A stretch of DNA of 64,000 nt, from the IMG/VR virus record IMGVR_UViG_2718218168_000001, positions 34,217 through 98,216 of that record; one strand, 5' to 3'. The stretch comes from a virus (taxonomy: Duplodnaviria; Heunggongvirae; Uroviricota; Caudoviricetes). The notes below the pieces were generated by a model. The model was not told the DNA's origin. It searched no databases and was given only the letters and a program-made list of their open reading frames with translations. Below, one piece after another: positions 1,827-29,617 of this stretch (its first letter is position 1; the number at the start of each line of letters is the position of its first letter). Position numbers and translations under genes: made by a program.

Positions 1827-2870
1827 TTATCTAACACTCGACGAATGACTTGTGATAACGCCCACTCCAAGCGCGTAATCAAAGAACAATCGTTGATGCA
1901 TCGCCAACCTACCGTGCGTCTTCTCCCAATTATCGCGGTCACGCTCAATATCACGCTGGCATGACTGGCACAGAGGAATTGCGTAAATGTCATGCGCGCA
2001 TAATCGACTATGACGAACGATATAAGGCGTAATGTGAGCGCCAGCTCCCGCAGCTCCACACCCACAGCATGGACGGGAAGCAACAAAGTCCATGTACTCA
2101 GGTAATTTTAGCGATTGCAGTTTTGGTATTTTGAAATGCGCCATGCCAGGGTCGGAGTCAACATCCACAGGGCATACTTTTGCACGCATCGGCGCGGCGC
2201 GTTCTTCCATCATCTGAACATATGCTGTAGCGCGATCGTCATACGGGCGAATATCCGCCTCTTTCAGAGGTCCGCTATCCTGCGGAGTAGCCTTCATCTT
2301 ATTTATTGATATGCGGCAGACTTCTTCCGGCATCAGGTGCATCATGTTGCGCATGAAAGCCCACCAGCACAGCTCCTGAATACTTAAATCATGGCTATTT
2401 GAAAGGCCCATTTCCTGACGGGCGACATCCAGTATCCAGTTAACGCGATTATTGTGCAGCGTTTCTTTCAGCTCATTAAAACCACGCATCCGATAATGGT
2501 TATCGTGATGCCAGCACAACAACACCGCGCTATTGTCTCGTTCAGCGTGGACAATATGATTGTCACACCAACTACGATCTGCGGCCTGGCATTGACCCTC
2601 TTTCCTACGCAACCACGCCACCAGCGCGTCAATTCCACCAATACGGCGAAACAGTTCATCGCTGTTAAAAAACGGCTGCAACGCCTCATTTGTTGCCATG
2701 GTTTGCTCGGTAACAACGAGGCCGTCTTCCATGTGCTCGATTAACTCACGCGGCACCGGCTCCATAATAAATTTACGGCCAGCCTCCACCAGCTTTCTGA
2801 CCTCCTGATCCACTTTGAACGTGGCGAGGCCAAGCTCTTTCTGTACAAAGGGAGTAATTACGGCTTTCAC
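1827..2870 (-). CDS. hypothetical protein with Cys-rich C-terminus
   Basis: 347-aa ORF; C-terminal CCGCG...C..H...C..C cluster suggests metal binding; true start may be internal. Confidence 0.5.
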
Positions 2871-2897
2871 ATCACACCTTTAATCACTGATTGGGCT

Positions 2898-3077
2898 TTA
2901 TCTGCTGCCCGGCATTCTCTGTTTAAGCACAACCATTTCCTGACGGCATAACACAGCAATAGCGGTCCTGACTCCAATTTGCTTACCAACCAGGTATTGC
3001 TTTACCTTGCGGCGACTCACGCCATCAAGAAGCATCTTTAACGCTTCACGGGACAATTTGTTGTATTTGCGTGCCAT
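2898..3077 (-). CDS. small basic protein, possible DNA-binding
   Basis: about 59 aa from an internal Met (MARKYNKLSREALKMLL...); short and basic. Confidence 0.3.
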   Translation of the reverse strand: MARKYNKLSREALKMLLDGVSRRKVKQYLVGKQIGVRTAIAVLCRQEMVVLKQRMPGSR

Positions 3078-3081
3078 TAAT

Positions 3082-3462
3082 CTACTCCGCAGAACCATAC
3101 AATCTACGTAACGTGGCGGCGACAGAAGATACAGATATCTCGCCAGTCGCAGCCCCTACGGTAAGGTCTGCCAGTTCAGGTGAATCAAATACCTGCACCC
3201 CGTTACGGCGTAGAAATAACAGCGCACTGTTTAGCGCGGTACGCTTATTGGCATCATTGAATATATGCCCTCTCGCCGTAGCCACCAGGTAGGTGGCGGA
3301 GACTTCGAAAAGGTCGGTGATCTCTTCGTAGGCAACTCTGGCCTGAACTCTCCCGATAATGGCCTCTGCCCTACCCGGATCTGACATTCCCGGCAGGCCG
3401 CCGTAGCGGTTTATATTCGCATCATGAAGCGCAATAAGTTCTTCCGGTGATATATGCCTCAT
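3082..3462 (-). CDS. doc: Doc toxin (death on curing; Fic-fold kinase)
   Basis: 126 aa; sequence matches P1 Doc as recalled ([17 protein letters not shown]...[19 protein letters not shown]). Confidence 0.93.
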
Positions 3463-3683
3463 TATCGGTTAACCAGTTCCTTGTTGGTGGAGTCCAGGGT
3501 GTCAAACAGGGATGCAAATTCAGCATCCAGCGCCGCTTTTTTGTAGGTTTCAAAAGTAGCCTTGCTGACAATTACTGCTGGCTCACGGCCTCTGCGGGTG
3601 ATTTCAACCTCTTCCCCTGCTTCAACATTATTGAGCACTTCGCTAAGGTTGCCGCGCGCGGTACGGAAGTTAATGGATTGCAT
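3462..3683 (-). CDS. phd: Phd antitoxin
   Basis: about 73 aa from [45 protein letters not shown]...; its stop overlaps the doc start. Confidence 0.9.
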
Positions 3684-24252: not shown

Positions 24253-24328
24253 TGGTGCCGATTAACGGACTCGAACCGCTGACATCCTGCTTACAAGGCA
24301 GGCGCTCTACCAACTGAGCTAAACCGGC
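24253..24328 (-). tRNA. tRNA-Thr (UGU)
   Basis: GCCGGTTTAGCTCAGTTGGTAGAGC...CTTGTAA...GGTTCGAGTCC...CACCA, 76 nt. Confidence 0.85.
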
Positions 24329-24330
24329 AT

Positions 24331-24406
24331 TGGCGATGGTGGATGGATTTGAACCATCGACCCGTTGATTAACAGTCAACCGCTCTAACCGCTGAGCTAC
24401 ACCATC
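24331..24406 (-). tRNA. tRNA-Asn (GUU)
   Basis: GATGGTGTAGCTCAGCGGTTAGAGC...CTGTTAA...GGTTCAAATCC...CGCCA, 76 nt. Confidence 0.85.
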
Positions 24407-25071: not shown

Positions 25072-25088
25072 AAATTTATTAGAGCAAT
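25072..25088. promoter_or_regulatory. C1 operator, 17/17 to AAATTTATTAGAGCAAT
   Basis: perfect match overlapping the dmt stop codon, upstream of the tRNA-ban operon. Confidence 0.6.
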
Positions 25089-28000
25089 ATACCCAAAACG
25101 TCATGAGCTACACCTCGAGTGTCCCCCTTACAAGACACAGAACGTCTGGCAAAAAGAGGTTCCACTCTGAAGCCACTGTCATGATAAAGCTCTCTGATGT
25201 TTGGCGCGCCACTGTTAGTAATGAGAACCTTTGCACCTCGACGATGAGCATCCGTCAACAGAGACACCAGGCGTTTTTGCTCTTCAAACTTAAAGTCATG
25301 ACCGGAATAGTTCGTGAATCCCTCTGTATTTGGAAGCGGTTCATACGGCGGATCGCAAAAGATGACATCTCCTTCTCCGGCAGCTTCAATCACCGCTGCA
25401 AAATCACCGCATACAAACTCAGACCGCCCTTCCGCACCGAGGAAGGCTTCCATCTCCTGTAATGGGAAATACGGAGTTTTATACTTCCCATAACCGACAT
25501 TGAACTCACCGGCCTGGTTGTAACGCGTCAATCCGTTAAAACAATGTCGGTTCAGGAACAAAAACGCCGCTGCGCGATGTAAATCATCATAGACTTGTTT
25601 GTTAAACGCATTCCGTACTGCCAGGTATCCTTCCTGTGTGTTGTAGTCCTGGAAGAAACGATGTGCCAGAGTGATAAGTGAATGCGCCTCGCGTTGCAGA
25701 GTCTTGTAAAAGTTAATCAGGTCAGCATTCACATCATTTAGCAGATTTTCCTGGTATCCGGCATTCATGAAGACAGCTCCGCCACCAACGAAAGGTTCAA
25801 TCAGGCGCTTCCCTTCTGGCAAATAGCGAAAGATTTGTTCCAGAACACCAAATTTTCCACCAGCCCATTTGAATATGGACCGTTCGAATTCTGTCGCTGG
25901 TTTAACTTTTCGCTCTTTTGTTTCACTTCCTTCTTTCTGCCGACATACGGCCTTAGTAATCCGATCGCCAATCCAGCGCATTACTGGTATTGCCATACTA
26001 TTGCCGATCGCTTTGTAACGCGGTCCGTCAGCTGCAAGCATCGCGGCCTCTTCTTCGCTTAAATCTGGATAGTGATTGCGGAGATATGCCAGTTCATCTG
26101 AATTAACTTTTTTACGCTTTTCCGTCGGGATCAACGTATGCCCATCAGGAAAACCTTGCAGCCTTTCACATTCGACAGGGGTAAGACGGCGGACAGCTAC
26201 TTCTGCGTTTCTTACTTCATAGCAAACAGCTGTTGGATTTTTAGCCATTAGAGATGGTGAAGTATTCTTAGTTGCAGCATGTTGTGTACCGCTCATACGC
26301 TCAGGAAAAGCCAATGTAACAAGATGCTCATGGCTTTCTTGCTCACGTGCCCGCAATGTACCATGCCCTTCTGACCAAAAACCTGCTCCTGTGCTGCTAA
26401 AAACGGCAAGGTCAGTGGCATCTTTAAAATCTCTTGCCTTTACTGTCGATGCGGTTTCATCGTCAATATATTCCCCAAATGCCGCCATCCTGAAACCGTT
26501 TACGGCTTTCGTCGATTTCATACCGGGAGACATGCCAGCGTGTAGGCATGGATTTAGGCTTTCGCCACTGATTGCAGCGCCATTTGCAATAATGGCGGAA
26601 GCGATTTCCTTCTTTTTTCGGCTCGGCGCAATATTCCGGCGCACGCCTTCGAACTCAAAAAGTACCGTTGCGGGATCGAGGTCTGTTCGAGCACTTGCGA
26701 CAACAAACACGCGTCGGCGTCGTTGTGCCACTCCGAAGTATTGGGCATCAAGGATTCTCCAGGCCACCTTTCGCTGCGGTCCATAAATACAACCACACTG
26801 CGGCCACTTTGGAACATGGCAACCGGTTTTGCCATCCCACCGCCAGAACGCGTTGCTTTTTCCTGATTCAGGTCGATCACCTGGTTCAAATGGCACATCT
26901 TCTCCAGCCAATCCGGCAAGGAAACATCCGAAGGCGTTATCTGCCAATGACAAGACTCCTGGGACATTTTCCCAGACGATAACGGCTGGTTTGAGAAATG
27001 ACTCAGCCCGTTTGTCGTCAATTGCATTTGCAAGCTCCACATACTTTAAAGTTAGCGCGCCACGCTCATCATCAAGCCCACCACGTAATCCCGCGATACT
27101 GAATGCCTGACAGTTATGGACCACCGCACCATTGAGGATATAGGAATGATCACCTTCGACTTCTATGTTGTATACAGTATCTAGGCCTACCGATTTAAAC
27201 TCTTTGACTGTTCGTAAAAGCATTCCATGAGCCAATCTTGATTTACGTGACAATTTCTGCGGGCAGATTGTTACCTGATAATAATCCCGTTGATTTACCA
27301 CGCGATCCTCGATCACTTTTTTGGGCTCAACTTCAATAAAGCTGACCGAAGAAACATAACCACAAGTCTGTGACAACCCCGCAACGCCCCAAGCAAGCGC
27401 AGGACTAACACTATTAATTCTAAATCCCGCTTTACCACTTGGTGTCCCATCAGTATCAAGATAGCCTTGTAAAAACACATGACGCAATGGATGCGACATC
27501 ACCCATGCAGGGATACGTTTAGCATGGCTTAACTCGCCAAAATGTTCATTAAGCCAATTGGCATAACACGTATCATTCAAGGTTACTTTGATGCTCCCTC
27601 GGATTTCGCTTGCCACGGAAAACATGTTTTCTGGTATGTGGCAATGAAACTTTCTCAATTTCTGGCAATTTATGCCAAAAACAACCGCCTTCTTAGATTT
27701 ACCTCTCCATCTCCTAATATATCCATCGCCTACATAAGCGCCCGCAAGATACATAGCCTGTTCTTCAGACAAGAACCGAGAACAAATATCTGGAGATGCA
27801 ATATTGAAATTAGTTAGAGCGCACCATTGATATCCCGGCATATCACATGCTGCTCGCCATTCCGGTTCAGACAACAACTCTCTCTTAAAATATGTGCCAT
27901 TTTTCCGGGTGTTTTGGGCTTTCCACCGAACAGCCAGGAAGGGATGGTCATTGGTTGTTCTTATACCTAAAGGCTGCCCAACGGCATTAAGTAACCCCGT

Positions 28001-28366
28001 ATTAGCTATTTTTGAACCAACTCTTTTTACTTGTTGTAACCGCCCGAGATGACTGACTACGTAATCGCCAGGGCAAACATCTTCTATTGGTTTATAACCA
28101 TTTTTACAAAGAACCATATGCCCCGCGGTAAAACATGGTGTTCCCCCGACGAGCACGTCAGGGGATTCGATTTCCCCAGCCAAGACTTTTTTGGCAAGTT
28201 TTGTCATGTCGCCAAGGTTGGCGACATGGGGCCAGCGGAGCGCAAGAACGGCAGATGGAAAAGGCTCGATTTCAGCAAACCACGCCGGACGCATACCCAA
28301 CGGTTCCCAGGCAATACTCGCGGCTTCAATTCCACTGCAAACAGATCCGTAGCACAGCTCTTTCAC
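25079..28366 (-). CDS. dmt: bifunctional DNA methyltransferase (N-terminal C5-cytosine MTase, C-terminal Dam-like N6-adenine MTase) interrupted by an intein
   Basis: C5 motifs: SVCSGIEA (I), GGTP|CQAFS (IV, split by the insert), VWENVPG (VI), QRRRRVFVV (VIII); Dam motifs [18 protein letters not shown]; GTG start overlaps the hrdC stop; 754 aa without the insert. Confidence 0.85.
27113..28135 (-). other. intein with LAGLIDADG homing-endonuclease domain (341 aa) inside dmt
   Basis: starts Cys ([10 protein letters not shown]), block [16 protein letters not shown] and LQGYLDTDG motifs, ends ...ILNGAVVHN followed by +1 Cys that completes the PCQ catalytic motif. Confidence 0.8.
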
Positions 28367-29268
28367 TGCTTAGCCTCTCCGCCAAGGGCATTTACCAGAG
28401 CATCAACCAGGCACGAAATTTCACTGGTCAACAGGAAGAAATCTGCGTCCAGTCGCTGCGCAACATCTTCACTATCAATATCAGCGTTCTGCTCAAGCAA
28501 TTCATCCGCAAATTTGACGCTGGTAAGGCTGAAGTTATGGTCCAGTGTAAATTTAATGCGGTTCTGCCAGTCGAGTGCCAACTTAGTGACGAGCTTGCCA
28601 GCTTCCAGGTGTGTGGATATTTCATCACTTCCCAAGTCCTGCTTTTTCACTCGGGCAATACCGCCATCCTCAAGCACTGCCTTAAGTTCTGCCGCATCCC
28701 CCATTTGAAATCCCTGCGGAGCACTACCATCACGCACCCAGTCGGTCAGCGTTAACTCAATTTGATTTTCAACACTTAGGGGCACAACAGGAAGAGAACC
28801 CAGAGATTTACGCATAAGCGCGAGCATATCCTCTGCCTGTCGCGCGCTGGCATTGATATAGATACGTTTAGTTGAACCGTCGTAGATCGCCTGGATAACA
28901 GAAAACTTTGAAAAAGCCCGTGGCAGAAGAGAATGCAGAACTTCGTCTTTCAGGGAGTCCTTCTCTGTTTTCTTCAGTTTACGCGCTTGTTCTTGCTCAA
29001 GTTTTTCAATTTTTTCTTGAATAGCTCGCTGGATAACCGGCGGGGGAAGAATTTTTGTTTCGCGCTTTGCTTCAACAAGGATAAAACCATTTCCATGCAT
29101 AGCGATAACTTCGGAATTATCACCAAATGGAGATACAAAACCGAACTTGGCCATATCCTGACTACCGCATGGCGTGAAAAGGATCATTTTCTTTTTATCT
29201 TCTAAGTCGGTCAGATCCGCCTCACGAGAAAGTTTATAAATAGTAATGTTTTTCCAGTGCTTAAACAT
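28363..29268 (-). CDS. hrdC: RdgC-like recombination-associated protein
   Basis: start at internal Met ([16 protein letters not shown]...); strong similarity along the whole length to E. coli RdgC as recalled. Confidence 0.85.
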
Positions 29269-29617
29269 GTTGTAACCCTTGAATATCAACCACAGAAAGC
29301 TCGTCTTTGTAGAAAAATGCCAGGTTGTGGCACCCCCTCGTTTGAGCGTATGAGCTGGGACCAATTTCGTTCTTCCAGACAAATGGCTTCAAATCCGTAC
29401 GGCGAAGCATAAAAACGCGATTTGTTCCGCTCTGATTCCCAATGAGGCAAAAGCCTTCTTTCACCTTGATAGCCTGCAAGTTGTCGAGTTCACCGCTGGT
29501 TACACGGCTATCGAACTCTTTGCGACTTATTAGCTCCATCTGCATCTGACGACTCCAAACAAATACCCATTGAAGGGCGATGGCTGAATGGTACCGAAAA
29601 CAAGACATAAAAAACAA
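29261..29617 (-). CDS. hypothetical protein upstream of hrdC
   Basis: 118-aa ORF (probable start MQMELISRK...); stop adjacent to the hrdC start. Confidence 0.45.

What the first reader, a model, noticed from the sequence alone, without database searches (positions are those of the whole stretch)
27113..28135. Intein with a LAGLIDADG homing endonuclease inserted at the catalytic cysteine of the Dmt cytosine methyltransferase
The dmt ORF is 1095 aa. A 341-aa segment begins with Cys (CFTAGH...), carries a TxxH block (TTNDH) and two LAGLIDADG motifs ([19 protein letters not shown]), and ends ...VVHN followed by Cys. Removing it joins GGTP to CQAFSIAG, recreating an intact motif IV (PCQ) in which the +1 Cys is the catalytic nucleophile. 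The remaining 754 aa form a complete C5-MTase plus Dam-like fusion. I do not recall an intein described at this site in P1-family Dmt, so it may be a new insertion site with a homing endonuclease that could spread through the phage-plasmid population.
Basis: partly seen in the sequence, partly recalled or inferred. Interest (0 to 1): 0.88.

Follow-up and report, generated by a model that had tools for sequence, protein, structure and literature searches.

The report
Homing intein inside phage P1-family Dmt methyltransferase
The DNA methyltransferase gene of this P1-like phage-plasmid is interrupted, exactly at the enzyme's catalytic cysteine, by a canonical self-splicing intein that carries a homing endonuclease; it is real, common in E. 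coli phage-plasmids and unannotated, but it is an ordinary member of a known kind of element.

Summary
The dmt ORF (window 25079-28366, minus strand, 1095 aa) contains a 341-aa in-frame insert (27113-28135) that the reference P1 Dmt (754 aa) lacks exactly. Removing it restores GGTP|CQAFS, which aligns with the PCQ catalytic motif of M.HhaI.

The insert has every sequence hallmark of a class-1 intein: Cys1, a TNDH block B, a terminal His-Asn and Cys+1. It also has two LAGLIDADG motifs with their acidic residues. Pfam and NCBIfam profiles match it. A confident AlphaFold model (pLDDT 93) matches PI-SceI and the VMA, PI-PfuI and PI-PkoII inteins.

It is not rare:
- It occurs in phage RCS47, in a laboratory P1vir stock, in 132 of 497 dmt-carrying PLSDB plasmids, and in 151 of 492 dmt-carrying complete E. 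coli genomes. It is always labelled only as a methyltransferase.
- Related inteins occupy the same motif IV site in at least 100 other protein clusters across several bacterial phyla and one archaeon.

Population data fit homing:
- The intein sits in three target-recognition-domain backgrounds.
- Its synonymous diversity is 4-9 times lower than that of its host gene.
- It is linked to 11 private flank alleles within 118 nt upstream.

Splicing and cleavage are untested. Verdict: a new, unannotated member of a known kind, of moderate interest.

The parts
25079..28366 (-). dmt ORF, 1095 aa precursor (GTG start, stop codon included): N-extein, intein, then the rest of the C5-MTase and the Dam domain
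   Evidence: It is 99.4% identical in DNA to dmt of phage RCS47. The exact protein is in NCBI (ANJ37970.1 and others), named only 'Dam family ... methyltransferase'.
28136..28366 (-). N-extein, aa 1-77: C5-MTase motif I region up to ...DVLVGGTP (the first half of motif IV)
   Evidence: aligned with M.HhaI residues 19-80.
27113..28135 (-). Intein, 341 aa (precursor residues 78-418)
   Evidence: Absent, to the residue, from P1 Dmt AF234172. Supported by profile matches, an AlphaFold model with pLDDT 93 and pTM 0.89, and Foldseek matches to PI-SceI, TliVMA, PI-PfuI and PI-PkoII.
28133..28135 (-). Cys1, the intein N-terminal nucleophile
   Evidence: Invariant in the 14-sequence family alignment.
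27815..28135 (-). N-terminal splicing (Hint) lobe, intein residues 1-107, including block B
   Evidence: Pfam Hint_2 matches residues 1-49. The model is all beta-strand here.
27944..27955 (-). Block B, T61-N62-D63-H64 (TxxH)
   Evidence: T61 and H64 are invariant in the family.
27362..27778 (-). LAGLIDADG homing endonuclease domain, intein residues about 120-258
   Evidence: Pfam LAGLIDADG_3 at 34.5 bits. The sequence aligns with PI-PkoII. The domain alone matches I-DmoI, I-SceI and I-Tsp061I by fold.
27722..27748 (-). LAGLIDADG motif 1, LAGAYVGDG (acidic residue D137)
   Evidence: D137 is conserved as D or E in all 14 family members.
27446..27472 (-). LAGLIDADG motif 2, LQGYLDTDG (acidic residue D229)
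   Evidence: D229 is conserved in 13 of 14 members and K206 is invariant.
27113..27358 (-). C-terminal splicing lobe, intein residues 260-341 (blocks F and G), ending in His340-Asn341
   Evidence: NCBIfam TIGR01443 intein_Cterm is above its cut-off. The sequence matches the Spl DnaX mini-intein C-terminus. N341 is invariant.
27110..27112 (-). Cys+1: the first C-extein residue, and also the catalytic Cys of C5-MTase motif IV (PCQ)
   Evidence: It aligns with the Cys of GFPCQAFS in M.HhaI. That this Cys (Cys81) is the nucleophile of M.HhaI is established knowledge.
26126..27112 (-). Remainder of the C5-MTase in the C-extein (motifs IV-X: [30 protein letters not shown]) with its target-recognition domain
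   Evidence: Pfam PF00145 at 103 bits. Aligned with M.HhaI.
25100..25879 (-). Dam-type N6-adenine methyltransferase domain (precursor residues 830-1089)
   Evidence: TIGR00571 at 248.8 bits and PF02086 at 191.9 bits.
28136..28253 (-). 118 nt of N-extein next to the intein that carries alleles found only in intein-bearing copies; a putative co-conversion tract
   Evidence: There are 11 private alleles at -1 to -118 and only one in the 480 nt downstream. The Pro codon at -1 is CCA in every intein-bearing copy (24 counted, 20 in the stricter set) and CCT in all 57 intein-less copies.

Best explanation
The 341-aa segment is a canonical class-1 intein with a nested two-motif LAGLIDADG homing endonuclease. 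It is inserted between Pro77 and the catalytic Cys of motif IV (PCQ) of the C5-cytosine methyltransferase domain of the bifunctional P1-family Dmt protein.

Inferred mechanism of splicing: the 1095-aa precursor is translated as one chain. Cys1 makes the N-S acyl shift, and Cys+1 attacks the resulting thioester. Asn341, helped by His340, cyclises to release the 341-aa intein. An S-N shift then joins GGTP to CQAFS, giving the 754-aa Dmt with an intact active site. The same Cys+1 therefore serves first as the splicing nucleophile and then as the methyltransferase nucleophile. As a result, cytosine methylation cannot occur before splicing.

Inferred mechanism of spread: the free intein acts as a site-specific endonuclease on intein-less dmt alleles around ...GGTACGCCT|TGTCAGGC.... 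This happens when two P1-like elements meet in one cell. Repair from the intein-bearing copy then copies the intein across, together with a short stretch of upstream extein (homing).

Shown here: the anatomy, the fold, the precise insertion point, conservation of all catalytic residues, the patchy distribution, and linkage to private flank markers. Inferred, not shown: splicing, endonuclease activity and target, and homing.
For: - Exact boundaries against the intein-less P1 Dmt.
- Profile hits: Hint_2, LAGLIDADG_3 and intein_Cterm.
- An AlphaFold model with pLDDT 93 that matches PI-SceI (E 2e-16), the TliVMA and PhoVMA inteins, PI-PfuI and PI-PkoII.
- C1, T61, H64 and N341 are invariant, and D137, D229 and D329 are nearly invariant, across relatives of 24-52% identity. 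All relatives but the most distant (P0027) sit at the same motif IV site.
- Cys+1 aligns with the catalytic Cys of M.HhaI.
- The intein is open and full length in every copy seen. That covers 152 of 152 E. coli records at 80% coverage or more, and 13 distinct haplotypes without a stop codon.
- pN/pS is about 0.3 for the intein. It is 0.25 for the C5-MTase extein of intein-bearing alleles, against 0.18 for intein-less ones, so the interrupted enzyme still looks selected.
- The intein is found in three target-recognition-domain classes of dmt (extein 754, 672 and 807 aa).
- Synonymous diversity is 0.013 for the intein, 0.054 for the C5 extein and 0.112 for the Dam domain, measured in the same alleles.
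- Differences between an intein-bearing allele and its nearest intein-less allele cluster at the insertion site. For RCS47 against L008, 5 of 7 differences lie within -103..+21.
- There are 11 alleles private to intein-bearing copies within 118 nt upstream.
Against: - No experiment here shows splicing or DNA cleavage.
- Block F has Asn where many inteins have Asp (VYNIEV). This is conserved within the family, so it is probably tolerated.
- Hint_2 is only just at its Pfam cut-off, and Intein_splicing is below its cut-off.
- P1-like genomes are mosaics that recombine freely. General homologous recombination could therefore produce much of the patchy distribution and flank linkage without an active endonuclease.
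- Intein divergence (about 0.6%) is lower than that of its own gene, but not far below some neighbouring backbone segments.
- C5 methylation by P1 Dmt is itself only 'perhaps' in the P1 annotation.
Confidence: 0.85

Rival explanations
1. It is a splicing-competent intein whose endonuclease is no longer active, or no longer has a target. On this view the present distribution reflects vertical descent plus ordinary homologous recombination among P1-like plasmids, not ongoing homing.
For: P1-like loci are strongly mosaic, with whole target-recognition and Dam segments exchanged. The flank haplotype block could travel with the intein by general recombination. One relative has DTNG in place of DTDG in motif 2, so loss of endonuclease function does occur in the family.
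Against: Both catalytic Asp residues and the conserved Lys are intact, and no polymorphism touches them. No shortened or decayed copy occurs among 152 E. coli records. The intein's synonymous diversity is 4-9 times lower than that of its host gene. Private markers lie asymmetrically right next to the insertion point. These are the expected signs of recent endonuclease-driven invasion.
Confidence: 0.3
2. It is a non-splicing, permanently resident Hint-LAGLIDADG insertion. On this view the C5-MTase half of Dmt is dead in these alleles and only the C-terminal Dam domain is used.
For: C5 activity of P1 Dmt is not firmly established (annotation note). The Dam domain lies downstream and could fold on its own.
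Against: All splicing residues (C1, TxxH, HN, C+1) are conserved across relatives as low as 24% identity. The C5 extein of intein-bearing alleles remains under purifying selection, with piN/piS 0.25. The same site is used in at least 100 stand-alone C5-MTases that have no Dam domain to justify keeping the ORF.
Confidence: 0.05
3. It is a bacterial intein-like (BIL) or other Hint-family domain rather than a true intein.
For: The best Pfam match for the N-lobe is Hint_2, a model that also covers BIL-type domains. One weak PDB sequence hit is to a 'bacterial intein-like domain' at E 0.89.
Against: BIL domains, from established knowledge, lack a nested homing endonuclease. They are not inserted at conserved active-site residues, and they usually lack the HN/+1 nucleophile pair. 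All three features are present here.
Confidence: 0.02

Closest known systems
PI-SceI (the Sce VMA1 intein) and the archaeal VMA, PI-PfuI and PI-PkoII inteins: class-1 inteins with nested LAGLIDADG homing endonucleases
   Same: They share the two-lobe Hint splicing domain interrupted by a two-motif LAGLIDADG domain. They also share Cys1, TxxH, HN and Cys+1, and insertion at a conserved catalytic site. They are the best fold matches (Foldseek E 1e-9 to 2e-16).
   Different: Sequence identity is only 11-16%. The host protein is a DNA methyltransferase of a phage-plasmid rather than a V-ATPase, polymerase or ribonucleotide reductase. This intein is shorter (341 aa against about 450) and appears to lack the large extra DNA-recognition region. 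Its activity is untested.
Mycobacteriophage and actinophage DNA methylase inteins (DNMT-1/2, Kelley et al. 2016, PMC5050341; Dorothy_75 family, Gosselin et al. 2023, PMC9957025)
   Same: These are phage orphan methyltransferases invaded by LAGLIDADG inteins. They have a patchy distribution and intein phylogenies that differ from those of the host gene. They are detectable relatives by sequence (about 26% identity).
   Different: Kelley et al. classify those hosts as N6/N4-type methylases (PF01555) of actinophages, and Gosselin et al. study the same kind of actinophage methylase family. Here the host is the C5-MTase domain of an enterobacterial phage-plasmid protein, and the site is the catalytic Cys of motif IV.
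Inteins in C-5 DNA methylases (IPR001525), listed for actinophages in bioRxiv 10.1101/2025.01.02.630785, plus unannotated database relatives (Mannheimia phage vB_MhS_587AP2, Propionibacterium phage B22, Lactobacillus phage Nyseid, E. coli jumbo phages A4/TH47)
   Same: They have the same host enzyme class. Where I could read the junctions, the site is the same...GG.P|C...HN|CQ..S. Identity to the window intein is 27-52%.
   Different: They are in different genes and organisms. None is the P1 Dmt fusion protein. The preprint text I read lists the host family but does not give the insertion point.
P1 Dmt (AF234172, AAQ14041.1), the intein-less allele
   Same: The exteins are about 98% identical in DNA and colinear over all 754 residues. 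The gene order is the same: uhr-hrdC/rdgC-dmt-tRNA-Asn-tRNA-Thr.
   Different: It lacks the 1023-bp intein. It also carries a Trp in place of the conserved Gly just before motif IV (VWGTPCQ), which occurs in only 1 of 57 intein-less alleles.

Membership tests
Class-1 (canonical) intein | In-frame insertion in a conserved host protein, absent to the residue from orthologues | tested here: met
   P1 Dmt AF234172 lacks exactly residues 78-418. 57 intein-less and 24 intein-bearing alleles share identical junctions.
Class-1 (canonical) intein | Nucleophile (Cys or Ser) at intein position 1 | tested here: met
   Cys1 is present and is invariant in 14 relatives.
Class-1 (canonical) intein | Block B TxxH | tested here: met
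   T61-N62-D63-H64 is present. T61 and H64 are invariant.
Class-1 (canonical) intein | C-terminal Asn (usually His-Asn) followed by Cys, Ser or Thr at +1 | tested here: met
   The sequence reads VVHN|C. N341 is invariant. TIGR01443 is above its cut-off.
Class-1 (canonical) intein | Hint fold of the splicing domain | tested here: met
   Hint_2 scores 28.5 bits against a cut-off of 28.4, which is borderline. The AlphaFold model has pLDDT 93, and whole-chain Foldseek hits include PI-SceI and the VMA inteins.
Class-1 (canonical) intein | Autocatalytic protein splicing with ligation of the exteins | not testable with these tools
   This needs expression with a western blot or mass spectrometry. The only indirect support is purifying selection on the interrupted C5-MTase.
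LAGLIDADG (two-motif, monomeric) homing endonuclease | Two LAGLIDADG motifs, each with a catalytic acidic residue at position 8 | tested here: met
   LAGAYVGDG carries D137 and LQGYLDTDG carries D229. LAGLIDADG_3 scores 34.5 bits against a cut-off of 22.5.
LAGLIDADG (two-motif, monomeric) homing endonuclease | The alpha-beta-beta-alpha-beta-beta-alpha fold, repeated twice | tested here: met
   The model's secondary structure over residues 124-257 fits this pattern. Fold matches include I-DmoI, I-SceI and I-Tsp061I.
LAGLIDADG (two-motif, monomeric) homing endonuclease | Site-specific cleavage of the intein-less allele | not testable with these tools
The presumed target is the intein-less junction GGTACGCCT|TGTCAGGCATTC.
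LAGLIDADG (two-motif, monomeric) homing endonuclease | Mobility: patchy distribution, lower divergence than the host gene, and co-converted flanks | tested here: inconclusive
   All three signatures are present. Mosaic recombination among P1-like elements is a possible alternative cause.
C5-cytosine DNA methyltransferase (host domain) | Motif IV PCQ with a catalytic Cys, plus motifs VI (ENV), VIII (QRR), IX and X (GNS), after removal of the insert | tested here: met
   PF00145 scores 103 bits. The alignment with M.HhaI spans GFPCQAFS, ENV, QKRER, RKLHPRECARVMGYPD and GNS.
Bacterial intein-like (BIL) domain | A Hint domain without a nested endonuclease, not inserted at a conserved active-site residue, and typically without an HN/+1 nucleophile pair | tested here: not met
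   An endonuclease domain is present. The insertion is at the catalytic Cys, and HN|C is present.

The most novel reading that the evidence does not exclude
The intein is an actively homing element that is now invading the P1 family of phage-plasmids. It has reached about 30% of dmt alleles, all copies are intact, and a laboratory P1vir stock already carries it. Because it splits the catalytic PC dipeptide, it makes the cytosine-methylating (anti-restriction) half of Dmt depend on a post-translational step. That step could be conditional, for example redox-sensitive through Cys1 and Cys+1. The Dam half needed for packaging would work regardless. This would give E. coli and P1 a natural, genetically tractable model for intein homing and for conditional splicing in a phage-host arms race.
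Probability: 0.15. Interest if true: 0.7.

Novelty: new member of a known kind. Interest (0 to 1): 0.45.

Why it matters
- Annotation. Thousands of database entries call this 1095-aa or 1013-aa protein simply a Dam-family methyltransferase; one 90%-identity cluster alone has 3523 members, a mix of intein-bearing and intein-less forms. Length-based comparisons of P1-like plasmids will misread the 1-kb difference.
- Methylome interpretation. Cytosine methylation by these alleles requires splicing first. This is relevant to restriction evasion by phage-plasmids that carry resistance genes.
- Experimental access. Inteins are uncommon in E. coli (my own knowledge, not tested here). An intact LAGLIDADG intein exists in P1, the classical transducing phage. 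Intein-bearing (P1vir stock OP279344, RCS47) and intein-less (P1 c1-100) strains are both available. Together they offer an easy system for measuring homing, co-conversion and splicing in vivo.
- A recurrent target. The catalytic PC dipeptide of C5-methyltransferases proves to be a widely used intein insertion point across several bacterial phyla and one archaeon. I found it described only in passing in the literature.
- A possible tool. The endonuclease may be a new rare-cutting enzyme.

Tried and rejected
- Translating the stated interval on the + strand gives only stop-ridden text. The feature is on the minus strand.
- Sequence search of the PDB with the intein alone gave only weak hits: Spl DnaX mini-intein at E 0.0014 and PI-PkoII at E 0.016. 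The fold search was needed to settle the matter.
- The 14-sequence family alignment was too divergent for the genome-contig scan. The 8-sequence version worked, but it returned mostly unrelated archaeal inteins in other host genes such as ribonucleotide reductase. I separated these by reading the junctions.
- Base composition is weak evidence of foreign origin. The intein is 43% GC against 55% and 48% for the exteins, but other parts of dmt are equally low.
- Sliding-window divergence against other intein-bearing loci did not isolate a clean recombination tract, because the whole region is mosaic. Nearest-neighbour comparisons and private-allele counts were more informative.
- Literature searches for an intein in P1 Dmt, RCS47, P1-like elements or phage-plasmids found nothing relevant. 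Two comparative papers on P1-like plasmids do not mention dmt. The 2004 P1 genome paper is not held.
- I considered and rejected three alternatives. A BIL domain fails its defining features. An assembly artefact is excluded because the same allele occurs in more than 150 independent complete genomes. A contiguous native domain is excluded because it is absent from about 70% of otherwise near-identical alleles.
Full report
**Observation**

The longest ORF at the locus runs on the minus strand from 28366 to 25079 and is 1095 aa with a GTG start. Residues 78-418 of its product map exactly to window 27113-28135. They start CFTAGH and end VVHN, and the next residue is Cys. The + strand of the same interval is full of stops.

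**Is it an insertion?**

Megablast against phage genomes shows the whole 3288-nt gene at 99.4% identity in phage RCS47 and at 99.1% in vB_EcoM-Ro157c2YLVW. The P1 reference covers only 69% of it.

A protein alignment shows that P1 Dmt (AF234172, 754 aa) lacks precisely the 341 residues and is otherwise colinear. The junction is GTP|CQAFS. After removal of the insert, the N-terminal half aligns with M.HhaI through ...GFPCQAFSISGKQKGFEDSRGTL.... That places Cys+1 on the catalytic cysteine of motif IV. Motifs VI, VIII, IX and X follow downstream. The C-terminal third is a Dam-family domain, with TIGR00571 at 249 bits.

**What is the insert?**

Profile searches gave these scores:

| Model | Score (bits) | Cut-off (bits) |
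|---|---|---|
| Pfam LAGLIDADG_3 | 34.5 | 22.5 |
| Pfam Hint_2 | 28.5 | 28.4 |
| Pfam Intein_splicing | 21.8 | 35.8 (below cut-off) |
| NCBIfam intein_Cterm (TIGR01443) | 25.9-28.9 | 15.6 |

An AlphaFold model built on 14 family members is confident, with mean pLDDT 93 and pTM 0.89. It shows beta-rich N- and C-lobes around an alpha/beta core. Foldseek against the PDB returns these matches:
- PI-SceI at E 2e-16.
- The TliVMA and PhoVMA inteins.
- PI-PfuI and PI-PkoII.
- For the middle domain alone, I-DmoI, I-SceI and I-Tsp061I.

In the family alignment C1, T61, H64, K206 and N341 are invariant. D137, D229 and D329 are nearly so. This is a class-1 intein with a nested two-motif LAGLIDADG endonuclease. 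A bacterial intein-like domain is excluded by three features: the endonuclease, the active-site insertion and the HN|C junction.

**Relatives and the insertion site**

A search of 5.8 billion proteins found relatives at 48-52% identity, including a Mannheimia prophage. It also found relatives at 28-35% identity in Pseudonocardia, Parvibaculum and others. Almost all lie in PF00145 proteins at the same point...GG.P|C...(H/N/K/A)N|C(Q/T)..S.

Species-representative genomes add Metarhizobium, Gemmiger, Blautia, Coriobacteriales, Arthrobacter, a Bacteroidaceae MAG and a Desulfurococcales archaeon at the same site. A profile search of 1.84 billion cluster representatives gave at least 100 of the top 147 hits with this motif IV junction. 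Phage records with related inteins in cytosine methyltransferases include the following:
- Mannheimia phage vB_MhS_587AP2.
- Propionibacterium phage B22.
- Lactobacillus phage Nyseid.
- E. coli jumbo phages A4 and TH47.

The known mycobacteriophage 'DNA methylase' inteins are about 26% identical. The site is therefore a recurrent, widely used intein target and is not unique to P1.

**Prevalence and annotation**

| Collection | Records with dmt | Records with the intein |
|---|---|---|
| PLSDB plasmids | 497 | 132 |
| Complete E. coli genomes (5426 total) | 492 | 151, always at 80% coverage or more and 95% identity or more |

The exact 1095-aa protein is in NCBI. It is seen on 190 contigs and sits in a cluster of 3523 members. 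It is named only 'Dam family site-specific DNA-(adenine-N6)-methyltransferase'.

GenBank OP279344 is the genome of a laboratory P1vir stock (bioRxiv 10.1101/2022.09.09.507302). It carries the intein in a 1013-aa Dmt with a different target-recognition domain.

**Evidence on mobility**

I compared 80 IMG/VR dmt loci, three GenBank loci and the window.

- The intein occurs in three extein length classes (754, 672 and 807 aa). These differ in the target-recognition domain.
- Intein DNA differs by at most 1.1% between copies. In the same alleles the N-extein differs by up to 9.7% and the Dam segment by up to 9.2%.
- Synonymous diversity is 0.013 for the intein, 0.054 for the C5-MTase extein and 0.112 for Dam.
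- The Pro codon just upstream is CCA in all 24 intein-bearing alleles and CCT in all 57 intein-less alleles.
- In the stricter set of 20 intein-bearing and 57 intein-less alleles, eleven alleles are private to intein-bearing copies. All lie within 118 nt upstream, and their frequency falls with distance. Only one private allele lies in the 480 nt downstream.
- Each intein-bearing allele differs from its nearest intein-less allele mainly next to the insertion point. For RCS47 against L008, 5 of 7 differences lie within -103..+21. For the window against L027, 8 of 13 lie within -213..+24.

These are the expected footprints of homing with co-conversion. They do not prove it, because the region is a recombination mosaic.

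**Evidence on function**

- None of the 13 distinct intein haplotypes has a stop codon, and no polymorphism hits a catalytic residue. pN/pS is about 0.3.
- The C5-MTase extein of intein-bearing alleles is still under purifying selection, at 0.25 against 0.18 in intein-less alleles. This argues that the interrupted enzyme is still used, and hence that the intein splices.

**Mechanism (inferred)**

Splicing runs through the standard four steps: Cys1 N-S shift, Cys+1 transesterification, Asn341 cyclisation and S-N shift. It restores the PCQ motif, so Cys+1 is first the splicing nucleophile and then the methyltransferase nucleophile. Before splicing the C5 domain cannot work, whereas the C-terminal Dam domain may.

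The released intein would cut intein-less dmt when two P1-like elements share a cell. It would then be copied in by repair.

**Literature**

- Inteins in phage methylases are described for N6/N4-type enzymes of actinophages (PMC5050341; PMC9957025).
- C-5 methylases are listed as actinophage intein hosts in a 2025 preprint.
- I found no paper that mentions an intein in P1 Dmt, RCS47 or P1-like phage-plasmids.
- The library does not hold most subscription-journal papers, so an earlier mention cannot be excluded.

**Verdict**

The finding is correct and clean. It is a new, unannotated member of a well-known kind of element, at an insertion site that is widespread in databases. Its value is practical: annotation, methylome interpretation, and a tractable E. 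coli/P1 model for homing with intein-bearing and intein-less strains already in hand. Interest is 0.45.

Noticed in passing
L003 (AF234172) dmt codon 74; the corresponding window position is about 28145-28147: The reference P1 c1-100 mod749::IS5 Dmt reads VWGTPCQ where all other alleles read VGGTPCQ. This is 1 of 57 intein-less alleles. A Trp in the conserved GG.PCQ motif may cripple the C5-MTase of the reference strain, and it also lies inside the presumed homing site.
   Followed up: partly
window 26126-26700 approx. (target-recognition region of dmt); loci L002, L060-L083: dmt alleles fall into at least four length classes (extein 672, 754, 807 and 862 aa). They differ by wholesale replacement of the segment between motifs VIII and IX, so the cytosine-methylation specificity of P1-like elements is probably being swapped by recombination.
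   Followed up: partly
L002 (OP279344.1 61684-64725): A laboratory P1vir stock used for Argonaute studies carries the intein in a 1013-aa Dmt. Other GenBank 'P1' records (MH445380, MH445381) have the same alternative target-recognition domain without the intein. Laboratory P1 stocks are therefore heterogeneous at this locus.
   Followed up: partly
L107 (Sphingopyxis sp. GW247-27LB) 2501-3547: A related intein at the same motif IV site is followed by Ser instead of Cys (VVHN|SQGFSLAGL). After splicing, the methyltransferase would lack its catalytic cysteine.
   Followed up: no
P0012 (Mannheimia haemolytica / phage vB_MhS_587AP2, H139), P0026 (Rodentibacter), P0025: These look like decayed or mis-called relatives. 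The Mannheimia ORF ends 20 residues after the intein and is annotated as two genes. The Rodentibacter 'DNA cytosine methyltransferase' ORF starts inside the intein C-lobe. P0025 has a 141-aa mini-intein with no endonuclease at the same site.
   Followed up: no
L098 (Desulfurococcales archaeon MAG) 172-1347: An archaeal C5-MTase carries a related intein at the same site (IIGGVP|CFPPET...VVHN|CQPYSLA). The insertion point is therefore used across domains of life.
   Followed up: no
window 24253-24406 and 22537-22612, minus strand: tRNA-Asn(GTT) and tRNA-Thr(TGT) lie directly downstream of dmt, and a CAT-anticodon tRNA lies further on. ARAGORN calls the latter Met, while the matching plasmid annotates it as Ile. 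This is the same gene order as in P1.
   Followed up: partly
window 28363-29382, minus strand: The upstream ORF is the RdgC/HrdC homologue. It is listed at 339 aa from a TTG, while the annotated gene is 906 nt. It overlaps the dmt start by 4 nt, as in P1, which suggests translational coupling of the two genes.
   Followed up: no
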